DNA of 24,000 nt from Peptoniphilus sp. GNH (lineage in GTDB: Bacteria; Bacillota; Clostridia; Tissierellales; Peptoniphilaceae), in assembly GCA_021307325.1 (NCBI GenBank), contig CP089931.1:310979-334978 (forward strand), given 5' to 3'. Both the position numbers and the translations under genes were made by a program. Positions within the stretch are counted from its first letter, which is position 1. Each line of letters begins with the position of its first letter. Under the pieces are notes generated by a model. It ran no database searches and was not told where the DNA came from. It saw only the letters and a list, made by a program, of their open reading frames with translations. Below are positions 96 through 22,677 of this stretch, piece after piece.

Positions 96-1010
96 ATGGT
101 GCCATACAGAGTTTATTCTGAATTTTTGAAAGACAAATTCGGAGAAAAGGTATATAAGTTGCCGGTAAACTTAAATGGCACCTGCCCAAATAGAGATGGA
201 AGTAAGGCTTATGGCGGCTGCATATTTTGCGGAGAAAGTGGCGGCTCTTTTGAAAATAAAGATGGCGACATAAGGCGGCAGTTGGAACTTTCAAAAATCA
301 CGATAGAAAAAAAGTACAAGGCCAAAAAATTCATAGCATATTTTCAAAATTATACTTCTACTTACGAAGATTTATATAAATTCAAATCATATGTAGAAGA
401 GGCTAAGATTGAAGGCGTTGTAGGTTTTTCATTCTCCACGAGGCCAGATTGTTTGGGCGATGATTTTCTTGATTATTTTCAAGACTTGTCAAAGGATTAT
501 TTTGTAACACTTGAAGTTGGGTTACAAACTGTAAATTATAAAAGTTTAAAGCTTTTGAATAGGGGACATGGTCTATCTGATTTTATAGACTCATCCATCA
601 GAGCAAAAAAGAGAAATTTGAGACTATGTGTTCACATGATTTTGGATCTGCCATGGGATGATATGGATGATGTCGTGGAAGGAGCCAGGGTTCTTAGTGC
701 ACTGTCTATTGATGAGGTTAAACTTCATTCGCTTTACGTTGTGAAAGGCACAAGGCTTGCTAGTCTTTACGATAAGGGTGAGGTTCAATTGCTGGATGTT
801 AAGACTTATAAGGAAAGAGTAATAAATTTTCTTTTAAATCTAGACCAGAATATAGTCGTTCAAAGACTGGTTGGAAGAGCTCCGCAAGAGGATACGATTA
901 TTGCGAACTATAATACAAGCTGGTGGAAGATAAGAGATGACATTATAAATGAGATGTATTTAAAAGGACTTAGCCAAGGTCAGTTAAGAAAGGGTGGTAA
1001 AAATGGTTAA
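96..1010 (+). CDS. Radical SAM protein, TIGR01212 (YtqA/YhcC-like) family, function unknown
   Basis: ORF track 63..1010. It carries the cluster motif CPNRDGSKAYGGCIFC typical of TIGR01212 radical SAM proteins, followed by core motifs FSTRPDC and LEVGLQT. I moved the start to ATG 96 (MVPYRVYSEF), which has GAGGAAG 9 nt upstream. ATG 63 has no SD and would overlap the upstream ORF ending at 91, but it remains possible. Confidence 0.85.
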   Translation: MVPYRVYSEFLKDKFGEKVYKLPVNLNGTCPNRDGSKAYGGCIFCGESGGSFENKDGDIRRQLELSKITIEKKYKAKKFIAYFQNYTSTYEDLYKFKSYVEEAKIEGVVGFSFSTRPDCLGDDFLDYFQDLSKDYFVTLEVGLQTVNYKSLKLLNRGHGLSDFIDSSIRAKKRNLRLCVHMILDLPWDDMDDVVEGARVLSALSIDEVKLHSLYVVKGTRLASLYDKGEVQLLDVKTYKERVINFLLNLDQNIVVQRLVGRAPQEDTIIANYNTSWWKIRDDIINEMYLKGLSQGQLRKGGKNG

Positions 1011-1428
1011 ATTTATCTTAGGAGCAAAGGGAGCAGGCAAAACAAAGTGGCTTATAGATGAGGCCAATAAAGAAATTGGCGAAGGAAATGGAAATATTGC
1101 CTTTGTTGAAGTTGATGATGATCATATTTTTTCATTGGACTATAATGTAAGACTTATAAATGCAACAGATTATAGACTTGCTAACATTGAAAGTCTTTAT
1201 GGATTCTTATGTGGCTTGATGGCTATGGATTATGACCTCAAAAAAATTTATGTTGACGGAATCTATAAAGTTATCAGATTAAATATTGAAGAAGTGGAAT
1301 TTTTGTGTAGCAAGCTTAGCAAGGTTCCAGAAATTGAAGGCAGAGAAGTATACATAAATGTAGACTTTATGTTGGACGATATGCCTGAATATTTCAAAAA
1401 TAATTGCTTGGAAGTTAAAGCACAATGA
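1003..1428 (+). CDS. Small P-loop NTPase-like protein (141 aa), function unknown
   Basis: Walker A GAKGAGKT lies near the N-terminus. IAFVEVDDDH is a candidate Walker B. AAGGGTGG SD sits just upstream of ATG 1003. The gene overlaps the radical SAM stop (1008-1010) by 8 nt. The ORF track's GTG 994 is the alternative start. Confidence 0.6.
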   Translation: MVKFILGAKGAGKTKWLIDEANKEIGEGNGNIAFVEVDDDHIFSLDYNVRLINATDYRLANIESLYGFLCGLMAMDYDLKKIYVDGIYKVIRLNIEEVEFLCSKLSKVPEIEGREVYINVDFMLDDMPEYFKNNCLEVKAQ

Positions 1429-2086: not shown

Positions 2087-2120
2087 AAACTCTTACAGAA
2101 AATTTCTGTAAGAGTTTTTT
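2085..2120. terminator. Bidirectional rho-independent terminator between convergent genes
   Basis: Stem CTCTTACAGA (2090-2099) pairs with TCTGTAAGAG (2105-2114) around loop AAATT. An A5 run precedes it and a T6 run follows, so it gives a hairpin plus U-tract on both strands. Confidence 0.85.
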
Positions 2121-3274
2121 CATAGAATTTCTTTTATTTTTTTAATAAAGACATCCAAAATTTTTACAAGTTCAATTGTTTTACAATTGCCTTGCACTTG
2201 CACCATATTTCCAGAGCATGTGATGTCAAATTGTTTGGATAAATCATCAACTATAGACTTCAAATTTAGGCTTATAAGATTTTTAGATCTTGCTAACATA
2301 AATGAAGAAGTTGGACCGTTGGGCATACCATAAATTTGAATATAATTGTCCATGTCAATTATTTTTTGGGAAGTGAATTTCAATTCCTTGAAGTTTGGAG
2401 AGTTTATAATCTTATATATTATACTGTAATCTTTGTAAGTTAAGGCCTTGGACTTGAGTTCATTTACAGTTTCAAGGTTCAATTCTTTCTCCATCTTTTT
2501 ATTTTCTTTTACAAGAGAATCAAATTTCATTTTTAAACTTCTGGAAGCAGTTAGAATGTCTCTGCTGTCGTTAAGTTTATAAAGGGATTTCAAATTTTCA
2601 ACTAAATCAAATTTTTCTTGATAATCATCAAAGGCTTTTTTCCCAACCAAGAAAGACAACTCAATATTTCCGTCATTATTTTTCGTTATTTTGTTTATTT
2701 TAAAGATTCCCAATTCGCCACTTCTAGATAAAAGTGGACCAAATGATTGAAATTTACCCAATCCTTTTATTTCTGCAATATAATTGATTTTGTCGAAACT
2801 GCTATCAACTCTATTTATAATTAGGTTAGCTTGAATCAGATAATTTATGTATTTTTCAATTTCTTTGATTCTTGTGTAGCTTATATCCTTGGCAGATATA
2901 GTAAGAGATGAATTCTCAAGAATAGTAGATGAGATAATTTCAGCTCCATAATTTCTCATTAGAACTTTTTTTAAAATAGATAAGCAAAGGGCATTTTGCA
3001 TATTAGTCAATCTGTATTCCCAGTCGATTTCGAATTTTGCCTCCAGAATGTCTGTAGGCTTTTCATAGACAATTTCTTTTCCATCAAAGTAAAATGATAA
3101 GTCCTTACCGTCATATGTAAGTCTATCCATGGGGAAAGAGTCATTTTCAAAAACAGCTATATTCTTATCTGCAGTATATTTAATTTTTCCCGTATCATCT
3201 TCAAATGGAATAAATTTAGCCCTTACAGATTTCATATAAGGATTTTCTAAAAACTTAAAATTAATAATTCTCAC
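2120..3274 (-). CDS. AlaX-L-like protein (alanyl-tRNA editing / tRNA-SAD-type domain plus C-terminal DHHA1-like region) with degenerate metal-binding motifs
   Basis: ORF track, 384 aa. IDWEYRLTNMQNALCLSIL resembles the AlaX/AlaRS editing motif (DWxRR..MQxHxxxHLL). FGPLLSRSGELGIFKINKI resembles CGGTHVxxTGEIGxFKI. The His/Cys positions are substituted. GTG start at 3274 abuts AGAGAG, so the start is uncertain. Assignment is from remembered motifs only. Confidence 0.5.
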   Translation of the reverse strand: MRIINFKFLENPYMKSVRAKFIPFEDDTGKIKYTADKNIAVFENDSFPMDRLTYDGKDLSFYFDGKEIVYEKPTDILEAKFEIDWEYRLTNMQNALCLSILKKVLMRNYGAEIISSTILENSSLTISAKDISYTRIKEIEKYINYLIQANLIINRVDSSFDKINYIAEIKGLGKFQSFGPLLSRSGELGIFKINKITKNNDGNIELSFLVGKKAFDDYQEKFDLVENLKSLYKLNDSRDILTASRSLKMKFDSLVKENKKMEKELNLETVNELKSKALTYKDYSIIYKIINSPNFKELKFTSQKIIDMDNYIQIYGMPNGPTSSFMLARSKNLISLNLKSIVDDLSKQFDITCSGNMVQVQGNCKTIELVKILDVFIKKIKEIL

Positions 3275-10150: not shown

Positions 10151-10177
10151 TTAGCACTCGATGTTAATGAGTGCTAA
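10151..10177 (+). promoter_or_regulatory. CIRCE operator (HrcA binding site)
   Basis: TTAGCACTC-N9-GAGTGCTAA is a perfect match to the CIRCE consensus. It lies between the promoter and the hrcA start. Confidence 0.97.
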
Positions 10178-18736: not shown

Positions 18737-18765
18737 TTGACACTCAATTTGAGCTATGATATTAT
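18737..18765 (+). promoter_or_regulatory. Strong sigma-A promoter with extended -10 for the ACAD-fusion/FDP operon
   Basis: TTGACA (18737-18742), a 17-nt spacer ending in TGa (18757-18759), then TATTAT (18760-18765). Confidence 0.75.
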
Positions 18766-18783
18766 ACTTATAACGTATAGTTT

Positions 18784-18814
18784 AAAAAAGAAATTTGATT
18801 TTCAAATTTTTTTT
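18784..18814 (+). promoter_or_regulatory. A/T palindrome in the 5' leader (candidate operator or weak attenuator hairpin)
   Basis: AAATTTGA (18791-18798), TTT, then TCAAATTT (18802-18809), flanked by an A6 run upstream and a T-run downstream. It lies about +15 to +40 from the predicted TSS. Confidence 0.3.
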
Positions 18815-18855
18815 GAACTAAAAGAAACGTTTTCTAGTCGCAAAGGGGTGGTGAT

Positions 18856-20937
18856 ATGTCTTTTTTCAAAAAAAAGAAGTCTTCTGGCAAAAAGAAGGCT
18901 TTTGAAGAAAAGAAAGAAACTGTAACCGAAAAAGTTGAAAAGGTTTCTGCGACAAAAGAAGTGGAAACAGAAAGTAAATCAAAAGAGGGTGGAGGTAAAA
19001 GTATGTATAGACCAAACGAAGCACAAGAAGCATTGCGTAGAAAAGTAAGAGAGTTTGCTGAAGCTGAAGTAAAGCCCATAGCTTTTTCACTGGACCAAAA
19101 CAATGAATATCCAGATGAAATTGTCGCTAAAATGGCAGAACTAGGCATAATGGGATTGCCTTATGAAAAGAAATATGGTGGAAGCGAAGAAGGTGCTGTT
19201 GCTTATGCAATAGCAGTTGAAGAACTATCAAGAGTAGATGGTGGTGTTGGTGTTATTTTGTCGGCCCATACATCTTTAGGATCATATCCTATTGAAGCTT
19301 TTGGAAATGAAGCTCAAAAAGAAAAATATTTAGTGCCTCTAGCTAAGGGTGAAAAAGTAGGGGCATTTGGACTTACAGAACCAGAAGCTGGATCTGATGC
19401 AAGTGGTACTCAAACAACCGCTGAATTGGATGGCGACTATTACATTTTAAATGGAAATAAGATATTTATAACAAATGCTCCTAAGGCAGATACATATGTT
19501 GTATTTGCAGTTACAACTCCAGGCATAGGCACTCATGGAATTTCAGCTTTCATAGTTGAAAAAGGATGGGAAGGATTCACATTTGGAGATCACTATGACA
19601 AATTGGGTATCAGATCTTCAACTACCGCAGAATTAATTTTCAACAATGTAAAAGTCCCAAAAGAAAATTTATTAGGTCAAGAAGGTCAAGGATTTAGAAT
19701 TGCAATGCAAACTCTTGACGGTGGCAGAATAGGTATAGCAGCTCAAGCGCTTGGAATTGCACAAGGAGCATATGAAGCAGCTTTAGCTTATGCAAAGGAA
19801 AGAATTCAATTTGGAAGACCTATAGCTCAACAACAAGCTATATCATTCAAGCTTGCAGATATGGCAACTAAACTTAGAGCAGCTAGACTTATGATATATT
19901 CAGCAGCTGAAATGAAACAAAATCATGAAAACTTTGGTATGGAAGCTGCCATGGCAAAGATGTATGCATCTGATGTAGCTATGGAAATTACGAATGACGC
20001 ACTTCAAATCCATGGAGGAAATGGCTATTTGAAGGGAATGGAAGTTGAAAGACACTACAGAGATGCTAAGATTACGCAAATCTATGAAGGAACAAATGAG
20101 ATTCAAAGAGTTGTAATTGCATCAAATATTATTGGAAGATTGCCAAAACGTGGAGGTTCAAAGGGTGGGCCAGCTCCTGCAGCAAAACAAGGCCCCATTA
20201 CAGGCGAAAGAAAAAGAGAAATAATAAAGGCTGATACTGCACAAGAAGCGGTGGATAAATTAGTCGCAAGCTTAAAAAAGGACGGATATGATTTTTCCGT
20301 AGGAATTGATATAGATACACCTATTTCAGATGCTGAAAGAGTAGTAAGTGTTGGTAAAGGTATAGGCTCAGCAGAAAATCTTGAAAAAGCAAAGGTTTTG
20401 GCTCATGCAGCTGGAGCAGCTTTAGGATCTTCAAGACCAGTAGCTGAAAACATGAAATTACTTCCACTTGAAAGATATGTTGGTATGTCTGGTCAAAAAT
20501 TCAGAGGAAATCTTTATATAGCACTTGGCATATCTGGAGCATCTCAACATTTAAAAGGTATAAAAGATGCATCGACGATAGTTGCAATAAATAAAAATGC
20601 CGGAGCTCCTATATTTAAAAATGCTGACTATGGAATAGTTGGAGATATGAATGAAATCATGCCATTGTTGGCTAAAGCCTTGGGAACTGGAGAAAAAAAA
20701 CCGGCACCACCAATGAAAAAAGTAAGAAGATCAAAACCAAGAAAGCTAGCACCAAACTATGACGTTCACGTTTGCGTTGGCTGCGGATATGAATATGATC
20801 CAAATGTAGGAGACCCAGAAGCTGAAATAAGCCCAGGAACAATGTTCGAAAAATTGCCAGAAGATTGGGTATGCCCAAATTGCCAAGAAGAAAAATCTGG
20901 ATTTATAGTAGAAAACTATCCAGCTGACAGAAAATAA
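18856..20937 (+). CDS. Tri-domain fusion of acyl-CoA dehydrogenase, ETF-alpha C-terminal FAD-binding domain and rubredoxin, with a Lys/Glu-rich N-terminal extension
   Basis: The ACAD domain spans about 19003-20140 (GLTEPEAGSDA; catalytic-base context IYEGTNEIQ, Glu codon 20086-20088). The ETF-alpha FAD domain spans about 20341-20685 (VVSVGKGIGS, SSRPVAE, YIALGISGASQHLKGI, IVAINKNAGAPIF, ADYGIVGD). The rubredoxin spans about 20758-20910 (CVGCG at 20773-20787, CPNC at 20872-20883). An alternative internal start is ATG 19003, with GGAGG 7 nt upstream. Confidence 0.85.
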   Translation: MSFFKKKKSSGKKKAFEEKKETVTEKVEKVSATKEVETESKSKEGGGKSMYRPNEAQEALRRKVREFAEAEVKPIAFSLDQNNEYPDEIVAKMAELGIMGLPYEKKYGGSEEGAVAYAIAVEELSRVDGGVGVILSAHTSLGSYPIEAFGNEAQKEKYLVPLAKGEKVGAFGLTEPEAGSDASGTQTTAELDGDYYILNGNKIFITNAPKADTYVVFAVTTPGIGTHGISAFIVEKGWEGFTFGDHYDKLGIRSSTTAELIFNNVKVPKENLLGQEGQGFRIAMQTLDGGRIGIAAQALGIAQGAYEAALAYAKERIQFGRPIAQQQAISFKLADMATKLRAARLMIYSAAEMKQNHENFGMEAAMAKMYASDVAMEITNDALQIHGGNGYLKGMEVERHYRDAKITQIYEGTNEIQRVVIASNIIGRLPKRGGSKGGPAPAAKQGPITGERKREIIKADTAQEAVDKLVASLKKDGYDFSVGIDIDTPISDAERVVSVGKGIGSAENLEKAKVLAHAAGAALGSSRPVAENMKLLPLERYVGMSGQKFRGNLYIALGISGASQHLKGIKDASTIVAINKNAGAPIFKNADYGIVGDMNEIMPLLAKALGTGEKKPAPPMKKVRRSKPRKLAPNYDVHVCVGCGYEYDPNVGDPEAEISPGTMFEKLPEDWVCPNCQEEKSGFIVENYPADRK

Positions 20938-20948
20938 GGGAGGAAATC

Positions 20949-22193
20949 ATGTATAATATCAGAAAAGTAGCAGAAGATTTATATTTTGTGGGAGGAAACG
21001 ACAAAAGAATTGAACTGTTTGAAAACATGTTTCCAATCCCAGATGGAGTTTCTTACAACTCATATTTATTGATGGACGAAAAAACTGTTTTAGTAGATTC
21101 AGTTGACTGGTCAATAGCAAGGGACTATATAAGAAAAGTTGAAATAGTTCTTGATGGAAGAGACCTTGACTATCTTTTAATTCATCATATGGAGCCAGAT
21201 CACTGCGGAGCAATTGAAGAAATTTGCATAAGATATCCAAACGTTCAAATTATATCTAGTGAACAAGCTTTCCAATTTATGAGACAAATGGGCTACCACA
21301 TCCCAGAAGATCAATTAGTTATAGTAAAAGAAGGCGACACTATGAGCTTCGGAAAGCACACTTTAGCATTTTTGGAAGCTCCAATGGTTCACTGGCCTGA
21401 AGTTTTAATGTCTCTTGATACTTATAATGGAGTTTTGTTCTCAGCGGACGGATTTGGTTCATTCAAATCAATGGACGGAAAACTTTTTGCAGACGAAGTA
21501 GATTGGGAAAGAGACTGGCTTGATGAAGCTAGAAGATACCTCACAAATATAGTTGGAAAATATGGACCATTTATCCAAGATATCTTGAGAAAAGCTGGAC
21601 CACTTCTGCCAAAGGTAAAATATATTTGCCCTCTACACGGACTTGTTTGGAGAGATAATTTAGGCTTCTTTATAGAAAAATATGACAAGTGGTCAAAGTA
21701 TGAACCAGAAGAAGAAGGAGTTCTTATAGTTTATGCCTCAATGTATGGCAATACAGCAAATGCAGCACAAGAGTTGGCAAACAATTTGGTAATGAAGGGT
21801 GTAAAGAAGGTAGAAGTGTATGACGTATCCAAGACAGATATATCATACTTGATTGCCAAGACTTTCCAATATTCACATCTAGTACTTGCATCTGTAACTT
21901 ACAACTTGGGAATCTATCCTAAGATGAAGAATTTCCTTCATGATTTAGCAGCTCTTAATGTTCAAAATAGGACAGTTGGTATAATTGAAAATGGAACTTG
22001 GGCTTGTACAGTTGGTGACAAGATGGAAGAATTCATAAATGAAAACTTGAAACTTTTCGATGTACTTTCTGAAAGAGTTACAATTAATACTTCTTTAAAT
22101 GTTGCAAATAAAAACGACATGAACTCTCTTGAAGATTCAATAGTTGAATCAATGAAAAATATAAGAGAATTAAAAGAAAAACAAGCTAAATAA
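20949..22193 (+). CDS. Class-A flavodiiron protein (FprA / rubredoxin:oxygen oxidoreductase type; O2/NO reductase)
   Basis: 414 aa. The metallo-beta-lactamase-like domain has the diiron ligand motifs HMEPDH (21186-21203), VHWPE, FSADGFG and CPLHG. The flavodoxin-like domain contains VLIVYASMYGNTANAA. GGGAGG SD precedes the start, 11 nt after the upstream stop. Confidence 0.9.
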   Translation: MYNIRKVAEDLYFVGGNDKRIELFENMFPIPDGVSYNSYLLMDEKTVLVDSVDWSIARDYIRKVEIVLDGRDLDYLLIHHMEPDHCGAIEEICIRYPNVQIISSEQAFQFMRQMGYHIPEDQLVIVKEGDTMSFGKHTLAFLEAPMVHWPEVLMSLDTYNGVLFSADGFGSFKSMDGKLFADEVDWERDWLDEARRYLTNIVGKYGPFIQDILRKAGPLLPKVKYICPLHGLVWRDNLGFFIEKYDKWSKYEPEEEGVLIVYASMYGNTANAAQELANNLVMKGVKKVEVYDVSKTDISYLIAKTFQYSHLVLASVTYNLGIYPKMKNFLHDLAALNVQNRTVGIIENGTWACTVGDKMEEFINENLKLFDVLSERVTINTSLNVANKNDMNSLEDSIVESMKNIRELKEKQAK

Positions 22194-22250
22194 AAATATA
22201 AAATCTAAAATAGACTCATTAGTTAAAGTCTGATTTATAAATAATATTGT

Positions 22251-22297
22251 GTATCAACCTAAATCCTTTTATAAGGGTGAAGGTTGATACATTTTTT
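22251..22297 (+). terminator. Rho-independent terminator of the ACAD-fusion/FDP operon
   Basis: A 10-bp stem pairs GTATCAACCT (22251-22260) with AGGTTGATAC (22281-22290). An inner CCTT/AAGG pairing lies within the loop. ATTTTTT follows. Confidence 0.85.
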
Positions 22298-22576
22298 ATG
22301 TACAAAATTTGCCTGCTTTTATTGAAATTTATTTCGGTCTAAATTTAAATTTTATTAAAGTTTTAGACTACTTTAAGCTGTATTTTATGCTAAATATCTG
22401 TATGGATTTTGGAAAAAATATATAAGCATTTAATTTAAGTGTTTGTATAATTATTAGATTCAATTTGAAAACTAAAAGATTTTTAGAACTTAATTGAAGT
22501 CCTTCAATATTTCTATTTAATACTTTTCAAATAATATCTTGATATTTTCAATTGCATTTGTTAACTATTTTTGGCA

Positions 22577-22613
22577 TAAAAAACCTCCTGATTGGTTTTG
22601 ATTCAATCAGGAG
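22577..22613 (-). terminator. Rho-independent terminator of the minus-strand GNAT-MaoC pair
   Basis: Plus-strand CTCCTGATTG (22585-22594) pairs with CAATCAGGAG (22604-22613). On the minus-strand transcript the hairpin is followed by GTTTTTTATG (plus A6 at 22578-22583). It lies 64 nt past the MaoC stop. Confidence 0.8.
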
Positions 22614-22677
22614 ATTTACATCGAATTAAAAATTTAAAAAATTATTTAAAATAAATATTACATGTTAACATAAAAAC

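What the first reader, a model, noticed from the sequence alone, without database searches (positions are those of the whole stretch)
18737..22297. Hard-wired acyl-CoA dehydrogenase / ETF-alpha FAD domain / rubredoxin fusion in a two-gene operon with a flavodiiron O2/NO reductase
**Seen in the sequence.** One uninterrupted ORF joins three modules.
- A complete acyl-CoA dehydrogenase at about 19003-20140, with the catalytic Glu in IYEGTNEIQ.
- Only the C-terminal FAD-binding domain of ETF-alpha at about 20341-20685. There is no ETF-alpha N-domain and no ETF-beta gene in the window.
- A rubredoxin at about 20758-20910 (CVGCG...CPNC), reached through a basic linker.
Eleven nt downstream lies a class-A flavodiiron protein with every diiron ligand motif and a flavodoxin domain. 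A near-consensus extended -10 promoter and a 10-bp-stem terminator bracket exactly these two genes.

**Established knowledge.** Rubredoxin is the direct reductant of FDPs (Desulfovibrio ROO; clostridial and Moorella FprA). It is normally supplied by NADH through NROR, or through the flavin-reductase-rubredoxin fusion Hrb encoded beside fprA. In Bcd-Etf complexes the ETF-alpha FAD domain swings onto the dehydrogenase FAD.

**Inference.** Here the NADH input module is replaced by an ACAD plus a captive ETF-like FAD. The predicted intramolecular wire is acyl-CoA -> FAD -> FAD -> Fe(Cys)4 -> FMN -> Fe-Fe -> O2 or NO. This would act as a water-forming acyl-CoA oxidase or NO scavenger for a fermentative anaerobe. 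Running in reverse, it would be a rubredoxin-driven enoyl-CoA reductase. I do not know of a biochemical characterisation of this architecture, and I cannot check the literature from here.
Basis: partly seen in the sequence, partly recalled or inferred. Interest (0 to 1): 0.8.

Follow-up and report, generated by a model that had tools for sequence, protein, structure and literature searches.

The report
Known butyryl-CoA:oxygen oxidoreductase (BOOR) operon

Summary
One ORF (18856/19003-20937) joins a complete short-chain acyl-CoA dehydrogenase, the FAD-binding C-terminal domain of EtfA and a Cys4 rubredoxin. Eleven nt downstream lies a class-A flavodiiron protein (20949-22193). An extended -10 promoter and a strong terminator bracket the two genes.

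The architecture is not new. It is BOOR, the butyryl-CoA:oxygen oxidoreductase of Fusobacterium nucleatum (FN1423-FN1424; Bystrom & Wolthers 2024). [quoted passage not shown]

The window's proteins are 70% (BCR) and 61% (FDP) identical, over full length, to the pair in F. vincentii. At least 455 species genomes encode the EtfA-C+rubredoxin module. In 80 of 80 loci examined the ACAD is fused in frame and an FDP follows directly.

Its NO-scavenger and reverse-reaction alternatives are not, and its novelty premise fails.

The only unreported detail is a 49-aa Lys/Glu-rich in-frame N-terminal extension. It has its own Shine-Dalgarno and a conserved MSFFKKKK start, and occurs in a few Peptoniphilaceae.

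The parts
18737..18765 (+). Sigma-70-type promoter with extended -10 (TTGACA, 17 nt, TGaTATTAT)
   Evidence: 11 of 12 matches plus TG, the best site in the 4.7-kb scan. Sequence read.
18856..19002 (+). In-frame Lys/Glu-rich 49-aa N-terminal extension (MSFFKKKKSSGKKK...) with its own SD (GGGGTGGTGAT). It may give a long isoform and is not in NCBI's gene model.
   Evidence: Homologous extensions of 49-108 aa with a conserved start motif occur in L001, L002/P0004, L017/P0034, L029, P0005 and P0027. The reading frame has 0 stops against 1-23 in the other forward frames. AF2 pLDDT is below 35.
19003..20937 (+). BCR gene as annotated by NCBI (644 aa plus stop): ACAD, EtfA C-terminal domain and rubredoxin fused in one protein
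   Evidence: P0001 100% identical, 644 aa; GGAGG 7 nt upstream; 70% identity over 639 aa to F. vincentii BCR.
19015..20130 (+). Short-chain acyl-CoA dehydrogenase (Bcd-like) domain; catalytic Glu codon at 20086-20088
   Evidence: Pfam Acyl-CoA_dh_N/M/1. Best PDB match is C. difficile Bcd 5OL2_C, E 3.8e-141. E411 is invariant.
20200..20697 (+). EtfA C-terminal (domain II) FAD-binding module, preceded by a low-confidence linker (aa 431-445)
   Evidence: PF00766 at 2.6e-25. NCBIfam FixB/EtfA positions 194-311 of 313. 5OL2_A residues 205-329. Invariant S526-R527, S560-G561, Q564-H565 and D597. pLDDT 85-94.
20698..20766 (+). Basic Pro/Lys/Arg-rich tether (KKPAPPMKKVRRSKPRKLAPNYD)
   Evidence: Sequence. 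Partly conserved (K614, A617, P618, P628 and P633 invariant). Lower pLDDT of 56-61.
20767..20904 (+). Rubredoxin domain; Cys codons at 20773, 20782, 20872 and 20881
   Evidence: PF00301 at 5.8e-19. Best PDB match is D. gigas rubredoxin 1E8J, 5.8e-16. C640, C643, C673 and C676 are invariant.
20949..22193 (+). Class-A flavodiiron protein (BOOR FDP subunit), 414 aa, SD GGGAGG. Diiron ligands H80, E82, D84, H85, H148, D167, H230. Flavodoxin domain aa ~258-383 with SMYGNT FMN loop.
   Evidence: Pfam ODP/Lactamase_B plus Flavodoxin_1. Alignment to NorV 6ETB/4D02 and Moorella FprA 1YCF. 61% identity to F. vincentii FDP. An FDP lies directly downstream in 80/80 loci.
22249..22297 (+). Intrinsic terminator: 12-bp outer stem, 6-bp inner stem, then a T-run
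   Evidence: dG -24.9 kcal/mol, z -6.73, 0 of 200 shuffles fold as well.

Best explanation
The locus is the Peptoniphilus orthologue of BOOR, the butyryl-CoA:oxygen oxidoreductase.

Proposed path, step by step:
- The ACAD domain of the fusion protein (BCR) oxidises a short-chain acyl-CoA, most likely butyryl-CoA, to the enoyl-CoA and reduces its own FAD.
- Electrons pass to a second FAD held in the tethered EtfA domain-II module.
- They move on, one at a time, to the C-terminal rubredoxin Fe(Cys)4 centre.
- From there they reach the FMN of the partner flavodiiron protein and finally its diiron site, where O2 is reduced to water.

The two proteins are co-transcribed from one promoter to one terminator. 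They are expected to assemble as an ACAD-tetramer-based alpha4beta4 complex.

Physiologically this detoxifies O2 in a butyrate-forming anaerobe using a weak reductant instead of NAD(P)H. It also regenerates crotonyl-CoA for the bifurcating Bcd-EtfAB/Rnf energy-conserving route.

Shown here: domain content, cofactor-ligand conservation, operon structure, strict gene linkage, and full-length orthology to a Fusobacterium pair. Taken from the literature on the orthologue: cofactors, complex, activity, and lack of NO reduction. Inferred: that the Peptoniphilus enzyme has the same substrate and stoichiometry.
For: [quoted passage not shown]

BCR is 70% identical over 639 aa and FDP 61% over 403 aa to the adjacent pair in F. 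vincentii.

Published biochemistry of FN1423-FN1424 covers two FAD plus a rubredoxin iron centre, an alpha4beta4 complex, butyryl-CoA -> crotonyl-CoA coupled to O2 -> H2O, and no NO reductase.

The catalytic Glu, the EtfA FAD-site residues, the four rubredoxin Cys and the seven diiron ligands are all conserved.

The closest solved ACAD is the butyryl-CoA dehydrogenase of the C. difficile Bcd-EtfAB complex.

In 80/80 related loci the ACAD is fused in frame and an FDP follows within 15-149 nt on the same strand. At least 455 species genomes carry the module. The whole three-module family collapses into one representative at 50% identity.

The promoter and terminator bracket exactly the two genes.
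Against: No experiment exists for the Peptoniphilus enzyme.

Substrate specificity is inferred only. The best NCBIfam model is acryloyl-CoA reductase AcrC, and it scores below its cut-off (483 against 640 bits).

The comparison was with F. vincentii, not the exact F. nucleatum ATCC 25586 proteins that were assayed.

The AF2 monomer model has pTM 0.58, so inter-domain geometry is not resolved.

The proposed partner pathway (Bcd-EtfAB, Rnf) is not in the window.
Confidence: 0.85

Rival explanations
1. Same machine, different physiological substrate. In this amino-acid-fermenting Peptoniphilus the ACAD mainly oxidises another short acyl-CoA (propionyl-, valeryl-, isovaleryl-, 2-methylbutyryl- or caproyl-CoA) rather than butyryl-CoA.
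For: The best NCBIfam hit is acryloyl-CoA reductase AcrC, and no equivalog cut-off is reached. Substrate range cannot be read from sequence.
Against: The closest solved structures are butyryl-CoA dehydrogenases (5OL2_C, 4L1F, 1BUC). There is 70% identity to the Fusobacterium BCR, whose orthologue uses butyryl-CoA.
Confidence: 0.15
2. The pair is chiefly an NO reductase (nitrosative-stress defence) fed by acyl-CoA.
For: The FDP's best NCBIfam and PDB matches are NorV-type NO reductases and Moorella FprA. Many FDPs are bifunctional.
Against: Those matches are far below the equivalog cut-offs (214 against 635 bits). The F. nucleatum BCR-FDP complex had no NO reductase activity.
Confidence: 0.07
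3. The system runs in reverse as a rubredoxin-driven enoyl-CoA reductase.
For: The published name 'butyryl-CoA reductase', and the fact that clostridial Bcd normally works reductively.
Against: No reductant input module is encoded in the operon. The strictly linked partner in 80/80 loci is an O2-reducing FDP, which is an electron sink. The published activity is in the oxidative direction.
Confidence: 0.03
4. The fusion is an assembly or frameshift artefact joining separate genes.
For: None found. Some metagenome-derived homologs (P0002, P0003, P0021, P0059) do contain internal duplications that look like misassemblies.
Against: The fusion is in frame in 80/80 genomes from many families, plus Fusobacterium and a Vescimonas plasmid. 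NCBI holds the identical 644-aa protein.
Confidence: 0.01

Closest known systems
BOOR, butyryl-CoA:oxygen oxidoreductase of Fusobacterium nucleatum (BCR and FDP encoded by the FN1423-FN1424 pair; FN1423 is the FDP); Bystrom & Wolthers 2024, Biochemistry 63:2352
   Same: Identical three-module BCR, an adjacent co-directional class-A FDP, and a dicistronic layout. Identity to a Fusobacterium (F. vincentii) pair is 70% and 61% over full length. All catalytic and cofactor residues are conserved.
   Different: The host is Peptoniphilus (Tissierellia). The enzyme is untested. There is an optional 49-aa Lys/Glu-rich N-terminal extension absent from the Fusobacterium gene. No adjacent Rrf2 regulator is present, unlike many gut Clostridia.
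Bifurcating Bcd-EtfAB complex (C. difficile 5OL2; Acidaminococcus 4KPU/4L1F)
   Same: The ACAD domain is its closest solved relative (E 3.8e-141). The EtfA piece corresponds to the mobile FAD-carrying domain II that docks on Bcd.
   Different: There is no EtfA N-terminal domain, no EtfB, and so no bifurcating FAD or NADH site. Domain II is covalently tethered, and the electrons leave through rubredoxin to an FDP.
NAD(P)H-fed rubredoxin-to-FDP chains (Desulfovibrio NRO-Rd-ROO; Moorella Hrb-FprA; E. coli NorW-NorV)
   Same: A rubredoxin centre hands single electrons to the FMN/diiron core of an FDP (established knowledge; PDB relatives 1E5D, 1YCF and 4D02).
   Different: The input module is an acyl-CoA dehydrogenase plus an EtfA FAD domain rather than a pyridine-nucleotide oxidoreductase. 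The rubredoxin is fused to the donor, not to the FDP.
ACAD+ETF_alpha fusions without rubredoxin (P0136, P0239)
   Same: The same ACAD-EtfA domain II fusion, at 37-42% identity.
   Different: They lack the rubredoxin module. Their partners and function were not examined.

Membership tests
BOOR (BCR + FDP) | BCR N-terminal butyryl-CoA-dehydrogenase-type ACAD domain with a catalytic Glu | tested here: met
   Pfam N/M/C domains; 5OL2_C at E 3.8e-141; E411 in YEGT invariant.
BOOR (BCR + FDP) | Middle module is the C-terminal FAD-binding part of EtfA only | tested here: met
   PF00766. It aligns only to EtfA residues 205-329. FAD-site residues are invariant. No other ETF domains were found in the window.
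BOOR (BCR + FDP) | C-terminal rubredoxin with a Cys4 iron site | tested here: met
   PF00301 at 5.8e-19. CxxC...CxxC is invariant.
BOOR (BCR + FDP) | Class-A FDP gene immediately adjacent, same strand, dicistronic | tested here: met
   An 11-nt gap. One promoter and one terminator. 80/80 loci show the same linkage. Co-transcription itself was not measured.
BOOR (BCR + FDP) | Full-length sequence orthology to the Fusobacterium proteins | tested here: met
   70% over 639 aa and 61% over 403 aa against the F. vincentii SB055 pair. The exact FN1423/FN1424 sequences could not be retrieved.
BOOR (BCR + FDP) | Cofactor content (2 FAD + Fe in BCR; FMN + Fe-Fe in FDP) and alpha4beta4 assembly | not testable with these tools
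   Only ligand and binding-site conservation could be checked. The AF2 monomer has pTM 0.58.
BOOR (BCR + FDP) | Butyryl-CoA-dependent four-electron reduction of O2 to H2O; no NO reductase activity | not testable with these tools
   Known only for the F. nucleatum enzyme.
Bifurcating Bcd-EtfAB | Separate EtfA with N-terminal domain, plus EtfB carrying the bifurcating FAD and NADH site | tested here: not met
   Only EtfA domain II is present and it is fused. No ETF (PF01012) or EtfB ORF was found in the window.
Class-B FDP (flavorubredoxin NorV) | Rubredoxin fused to the C-terminus of the FDP | tested here: not met
   The FDP is 414 aa with only MBL and flavodoxin domains. It scores far below the NorV cut-off, 214 against 635 bits.
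Hrb/NROR-type donors to FDP | NAD(P)H:flavin or NADH:rubredoxin oxidoreductase input domain | tested here: not met
   No such domain was found in either protein.

The most novel reading that the evidence does not exclude
In a Peptoniphilaceae sub-clade, including this window, BCR is made as two isoforms from tandem in-frame starts, each with its own Shine-Dalgarno sequence. The long form carries a disordered Lys/Glu-rich tail of 49-108 aa. That tail begins with a conserved hydrophobic-polybasic motif (MSFFKKKK or MSxLSIFKRKK). It could tether BOOR to the anionic membrane surface where O2 enters, or modulate assembly. This feature is absent from the characterised Fusobacterium enzyme and from NCBI's gene model.
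Probability: 0.25. Interest if true: 0.35.

Novelty: already known. Interest (0 to 1): 0.2.

Why it matters
BOOR lets strict anaerobes burn off O2 with butyryl-CoA instead of NAD(P)H, and it may link O2 exposure to lower butyrate output. That matters for oral and gut ecology.

The system is published. It is already noted as widespread in butyrogenic Firmicutes, and is already being picked up in microbiome association studies.

This window adds only three things:
- A confirmed Peptoniphilus member.
- A quantitative census: at least 455 species, 80/80 strict linkage, and one cluster at 50% identity.
- A small unannotated N-terminal extension.

For annotation, 'acyl-CoA dehydrogenase family protein' and 'FprA family A-type flavoprotein' could be renamed as BOOR subunits.

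Tried and rejected
- The primary paper (doi 10.1021/acs.biochem.4c00279) is not held. Its content was taken from four open papers that summarise it.
- No BOOR or BCR structure exists in the PDB copy.
- Rfam (gathering thresholds) and tRNA scans of the window found nothing, so there is no riboswitch in the long leader.
- The leader palindrome AAATTTGAtttTCAAATTT (18791-18809) was tested as a candidate operator. It is absent from 79 related upstream regions, and 21% of shuffles match at up to 2 mismatches. I rejected it as a conserved element.
- The neighbouring MaoC dehydratase, GNAT, DUF1836, HIT and MtaB genes were tested for conserved linkage to BOOR. MaoC, DUF1836, HIT and MtaB have no homolog in any of the 80 loci. 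Weak GNAT homologs (34-60% identity) occur in 5 Peptoniphilus loci, but upstream of BCR rather than downstream as in the window.
- The simple terminator scan reported 0 sites. Direct folding showed the terminator.
- The genome-contig scan returned only the best 80 loci, none from Fusobacterium. A Fusobacterium locus was obtained by chance from a chromosome mislabelled as a plasmid in PLSDB.
- AlphaFold gave confident domains but no confident inter-domain arrangement. No fold search was run, because the sequence search had already identified each domain's relatives.


Full report
**1. Observation**

The window holds an uninterrupted + strand ORF at 18856..20937 (693 aa), followed after 11 nt by a 414-aa ORF at 20949..22193.

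Pfam places three modules in the first protein:
- A complete acyl-CoA dehydrogenase (Acyl-CoA_dh_N/M/1, aa 54-425).
- ETF_alpha PF00766 (aa 490-570, E 2.6e-25).
- Rubredoxin (aa 638-683, E 5.8e-19).

NCBIfam aligns the middle module only to positions about 190-311 of full-length EtfA/FixB models. The PDB search aligns it only to residues 205-329 of C. difficile EtfA, chain 5OL2_A. So only the FAD-binding domain II is present.

The second protein is ODP/Lactamase_B plus Flavodoxin_1, a class-A flavodiiron protein. Its H80-x-E82-x-D84-H85, H148, D167 and H230 align with the seven diiron ligands of E. coli NorV.

The best promoter-like site in the region is TTGACA-17-TGaTATTAT at 18737-18765. A two-tier hairpin at 22249-22292 followed by a T-run folds at -24.9 kcal/mol, z -6.7. 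The simple terminator scanner missed it because of the long loop.

None of the window's other ORFs of 110 aa or more, nor the 92-aa GNAT ORF, contains an ETF domain.

**2. Start codon**

NCBI's identical protein (P0001, Peptoniphilus sp. GNH) is 644 aa. That puts its start at ATG 19003, which has GGAGG 7 nt upstream. About 74 of 80 relatives start there, with a stop a few codons upstream.

**3. The fusion is real and very common**

All 120 listed hits of the homology search carry the same Pfam set and are about 634-646 aa. They come from Peptoniphilus, other Tissierellia, Peptoanaerobacter, Clostridium, Oscillospiraceae and Lachnospiraceae.

In the best 80 loci the ACAD is fused in frame upstream in 80/80, and an FDP lies 15-149 nt downstream on the same strand in 80/80, at 55-89% identity. 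Those loci include Faecalibacterium, Butyricicoccus, Eubacterium, Acidaminococcus, Erysipelotrichaceae and Synergistaceae.

In a library of 1.84 billion representatives at 50% identity, only one full-length three-module representative appears (P0121, 72% identical). The family is therefore tight. The remaining listed hits are ordinary or tandem ACADs, fragments of the fusion, an ACAD-glyoxalase fusion, or two more distant ACAD+ETF_alpha proteins without rubredoxin (P0136, P0239).

**4. It is already characterised**

A full-text search found that F. nucleatum FN1423 (FDP) is bicistronic with a Bcd-EtfA(C-terminal)-rubredoxin fusion named BCR. The two proteins form an alpha4beta4 complex, BOOR, which couples butyryl-CoA -> crotonyl-CoA to O2 -> H2O and has no NO reductase activity (PMC12288474). 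The primary paper is Bystrom & Wolthers 2024, Biochemistry 63:2352, which is not held.

An independent JBC paper restates the cofactors: FAD in the Bcd domain, a second FAD in the Etf-alpha domain, and an iron centre in the rubredoxin-like domain (PMC12528894). A 2026 preprint lists the BOOR Pfam architectures, which are the ones found here. It notes the pair in gut Clostridia, often beside an Rrf2 regulator (PMC13404960).

**5. Direct membership test**

PLSDB contains a 2.1-Mb F. vincentii 'plasmid' that is evidently a chromosome. It carries a 636-aa BCR, a 24-nt gap and a 405-aa FDP.

The window's BCR is 70% identical over 639 aa, and its FDP 61% over 403 aa. The following are invariant in a 45-sequence family alignment:
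- The catalytic Glu (E411).
- The EtfA FAD-site residues (S526-R527, S560-G561, Q564-H565, D597).
- All four rubredoxin cysteines.

The diiron and FMN-loop motifs are conserved in the Fusobacterium FDP. The sequence-testable defining features are all met. Cofactor content, assembly and activity cannot be tested here.

**6. Mechanism**

The best-supported reading is the published one: acyl-CoA -> ACAD FAD -> tethered EtfA-domain FAD -> rubredoxin iron -> FDP FMN -> diiron -> O2 to water.

The AlphaFold model shows three confident domains joined by low-confidence linkers at aa 431-445 and about 621-636. With pTM 0.58, this is consistent with mobile tethered modules but does not fix the geometry.

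Substrate identity in Peptoniphilus is inferred. The closest solved ACADs are butyryl-CoA dehydrogenases, but no NCBIfam equivalog cut-off is reached.

**7. Context**

The pair sits after hrcA-grpE-dnaK-dnaJ-prmA-rsmE-mtaB-HIT-DUF1836 and before a convergent MaoC-dehydratase/GNAT unit.

MaoC, DUF1836, HIT and MtaB have no homolog in any of the 80 loci. Weak GNAT homologs occur in five Peptoniphilus loci, on the other side of the pair, so there is no conserved linkage. The module is thus a self-contained cassette in varying contexts. It also occurs on a 142-kb Vescimonas plasmid, with an Rrf2 gene directly upstream.

An Rrf2 regulator lies upstream in 16-17 of 80 loci, but not in the window. 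A palindrome in the leader (18791-18809) is not conserved and is not statistically unusual.

**8. The one unreported detail**

Upstream of the annotated start, the frame stays open for 49 codons from ATG 18856, which has the SD GGGGTGGTGAT. This stretch encodes MSFFKKKKSSGKKKAFEEKKE....

Homologous extensions of 49-108 aa occur in a few Peptoniphilus and Anaerosphaera genomes and metagenome proteins (L001, L002/P0004, L017/P0034, L029, P0005, P0027). Their features:
- They begin with MSFFKKKK, AFFKKKQK or SxLSIFKRKK.
- They are preceded by an SD.
- They end in (E/K)GGKSM, which encodes the internal SD.
- They have different lengths yet all stay in frame.
- They have 0 stops, against 1-23 in the other forward frames.

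In A. multitolerans (L044) the same start is frameshifted relative to the ACAD, while the short form is intact. AF2 predicts the extension to be disordered. It is probably translated in some strains and dispensable. Its function is unknown.

**9. Verdict**

The NO and reverse-reaction alternatives are not supported. The system is already known, so interest is low.

Noticed in passing
window 18856-19002 (also L001, L002, L017, L029; proteins P0004, P0005, P0027, P0034): An in-frame Lys/Glu-rich N-terminal extension of BCR with its own SD and a conserved MSFFKKKK-type start. An internal SD and Met are retained, so two isoforms are possible. It is not in NCBI's gene model and is absent from about 74 of 80 relatives and from Fusobacterium.
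   Followed up: yes
L044 3445-3725 (Anaerosphaera multitolerans): The same MSFFKKKK start is present but lies 278 nt from the ACAD ATG, so it is out of frame. This is either a sequencing error in an A-rich tract or decay of the extension.
   Followed up: partly
window 18791-18809: A perfect palindrome AAATTTGA-ttt-TCAAATTT lies about 25 nt downstream of the -10 box. It is not found upstream of BCR in 79 related loci, and similar matches arise in 21% of shuffles. It is probably not a conserved operator.
   Followed up: yes
window 10151-10177: A perfect CIRCE operator (TTAGCACTC-N9-GAGTGCTAA) lies 18 nt upstream of hrcA, at the head of the hrcA-grpE-dnaK-dnaJ operon. This is ordinary heat-shock regulation.
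   Followed up: partly
window 22298-22677: A 380-nt AT-rich, ORF-free spacer separates the convergent units. It contains a minus-strand terminator hairpin (about 22579-22617, dG -18.3, z -4.1) for the MaoC/GNAT genes. There is no Rfam match.
   Followed up: partly
L082 2258-5857 (Vescimonas fastidiosa plasmid pMM35_02) and 16-17 of 80 loci: An Rrf2-family regulator is encoded directly upstream of BCR-FDP, as reported for gut Clostridia. In Vescimonas the whole Rrf2-BCR-FDP-nitroreductase set is on a 142-kb plasmid. The window has no such regulator.
   Followed up: partly
L081 (NZ_CP084075.1): The PLSDB record 'Fusobacterium vincentii plasmid pSB055A' is 2.1 Mb, carries core genes (BOOR, PFOR) and has one annotated feature. 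It is evidently a chromosome filed as a plasmid.
   Followed up: no
proteins P0002, P0003, P0021, P0059: These metagenome-derived BCR homologs of 684-791 aa are long because of internal tandem duplications of ACAD segments. Assembly artefacts are the most likely cause.
   Followed up: partly
proteins P0136, P0239: These are more distant (37-42% identical) ACAD+ETF_alpha fusions that lack the rubredoxin module. Their partners and function were not examined.
   Followed up: no
window 994-1428 and 2120-3274(-): These are two ORFs without a convincing family assignment. One is 144 aa with no Pfam hit. The other is 384 aa with only a weak DUF2092 match.
   Followed up: no
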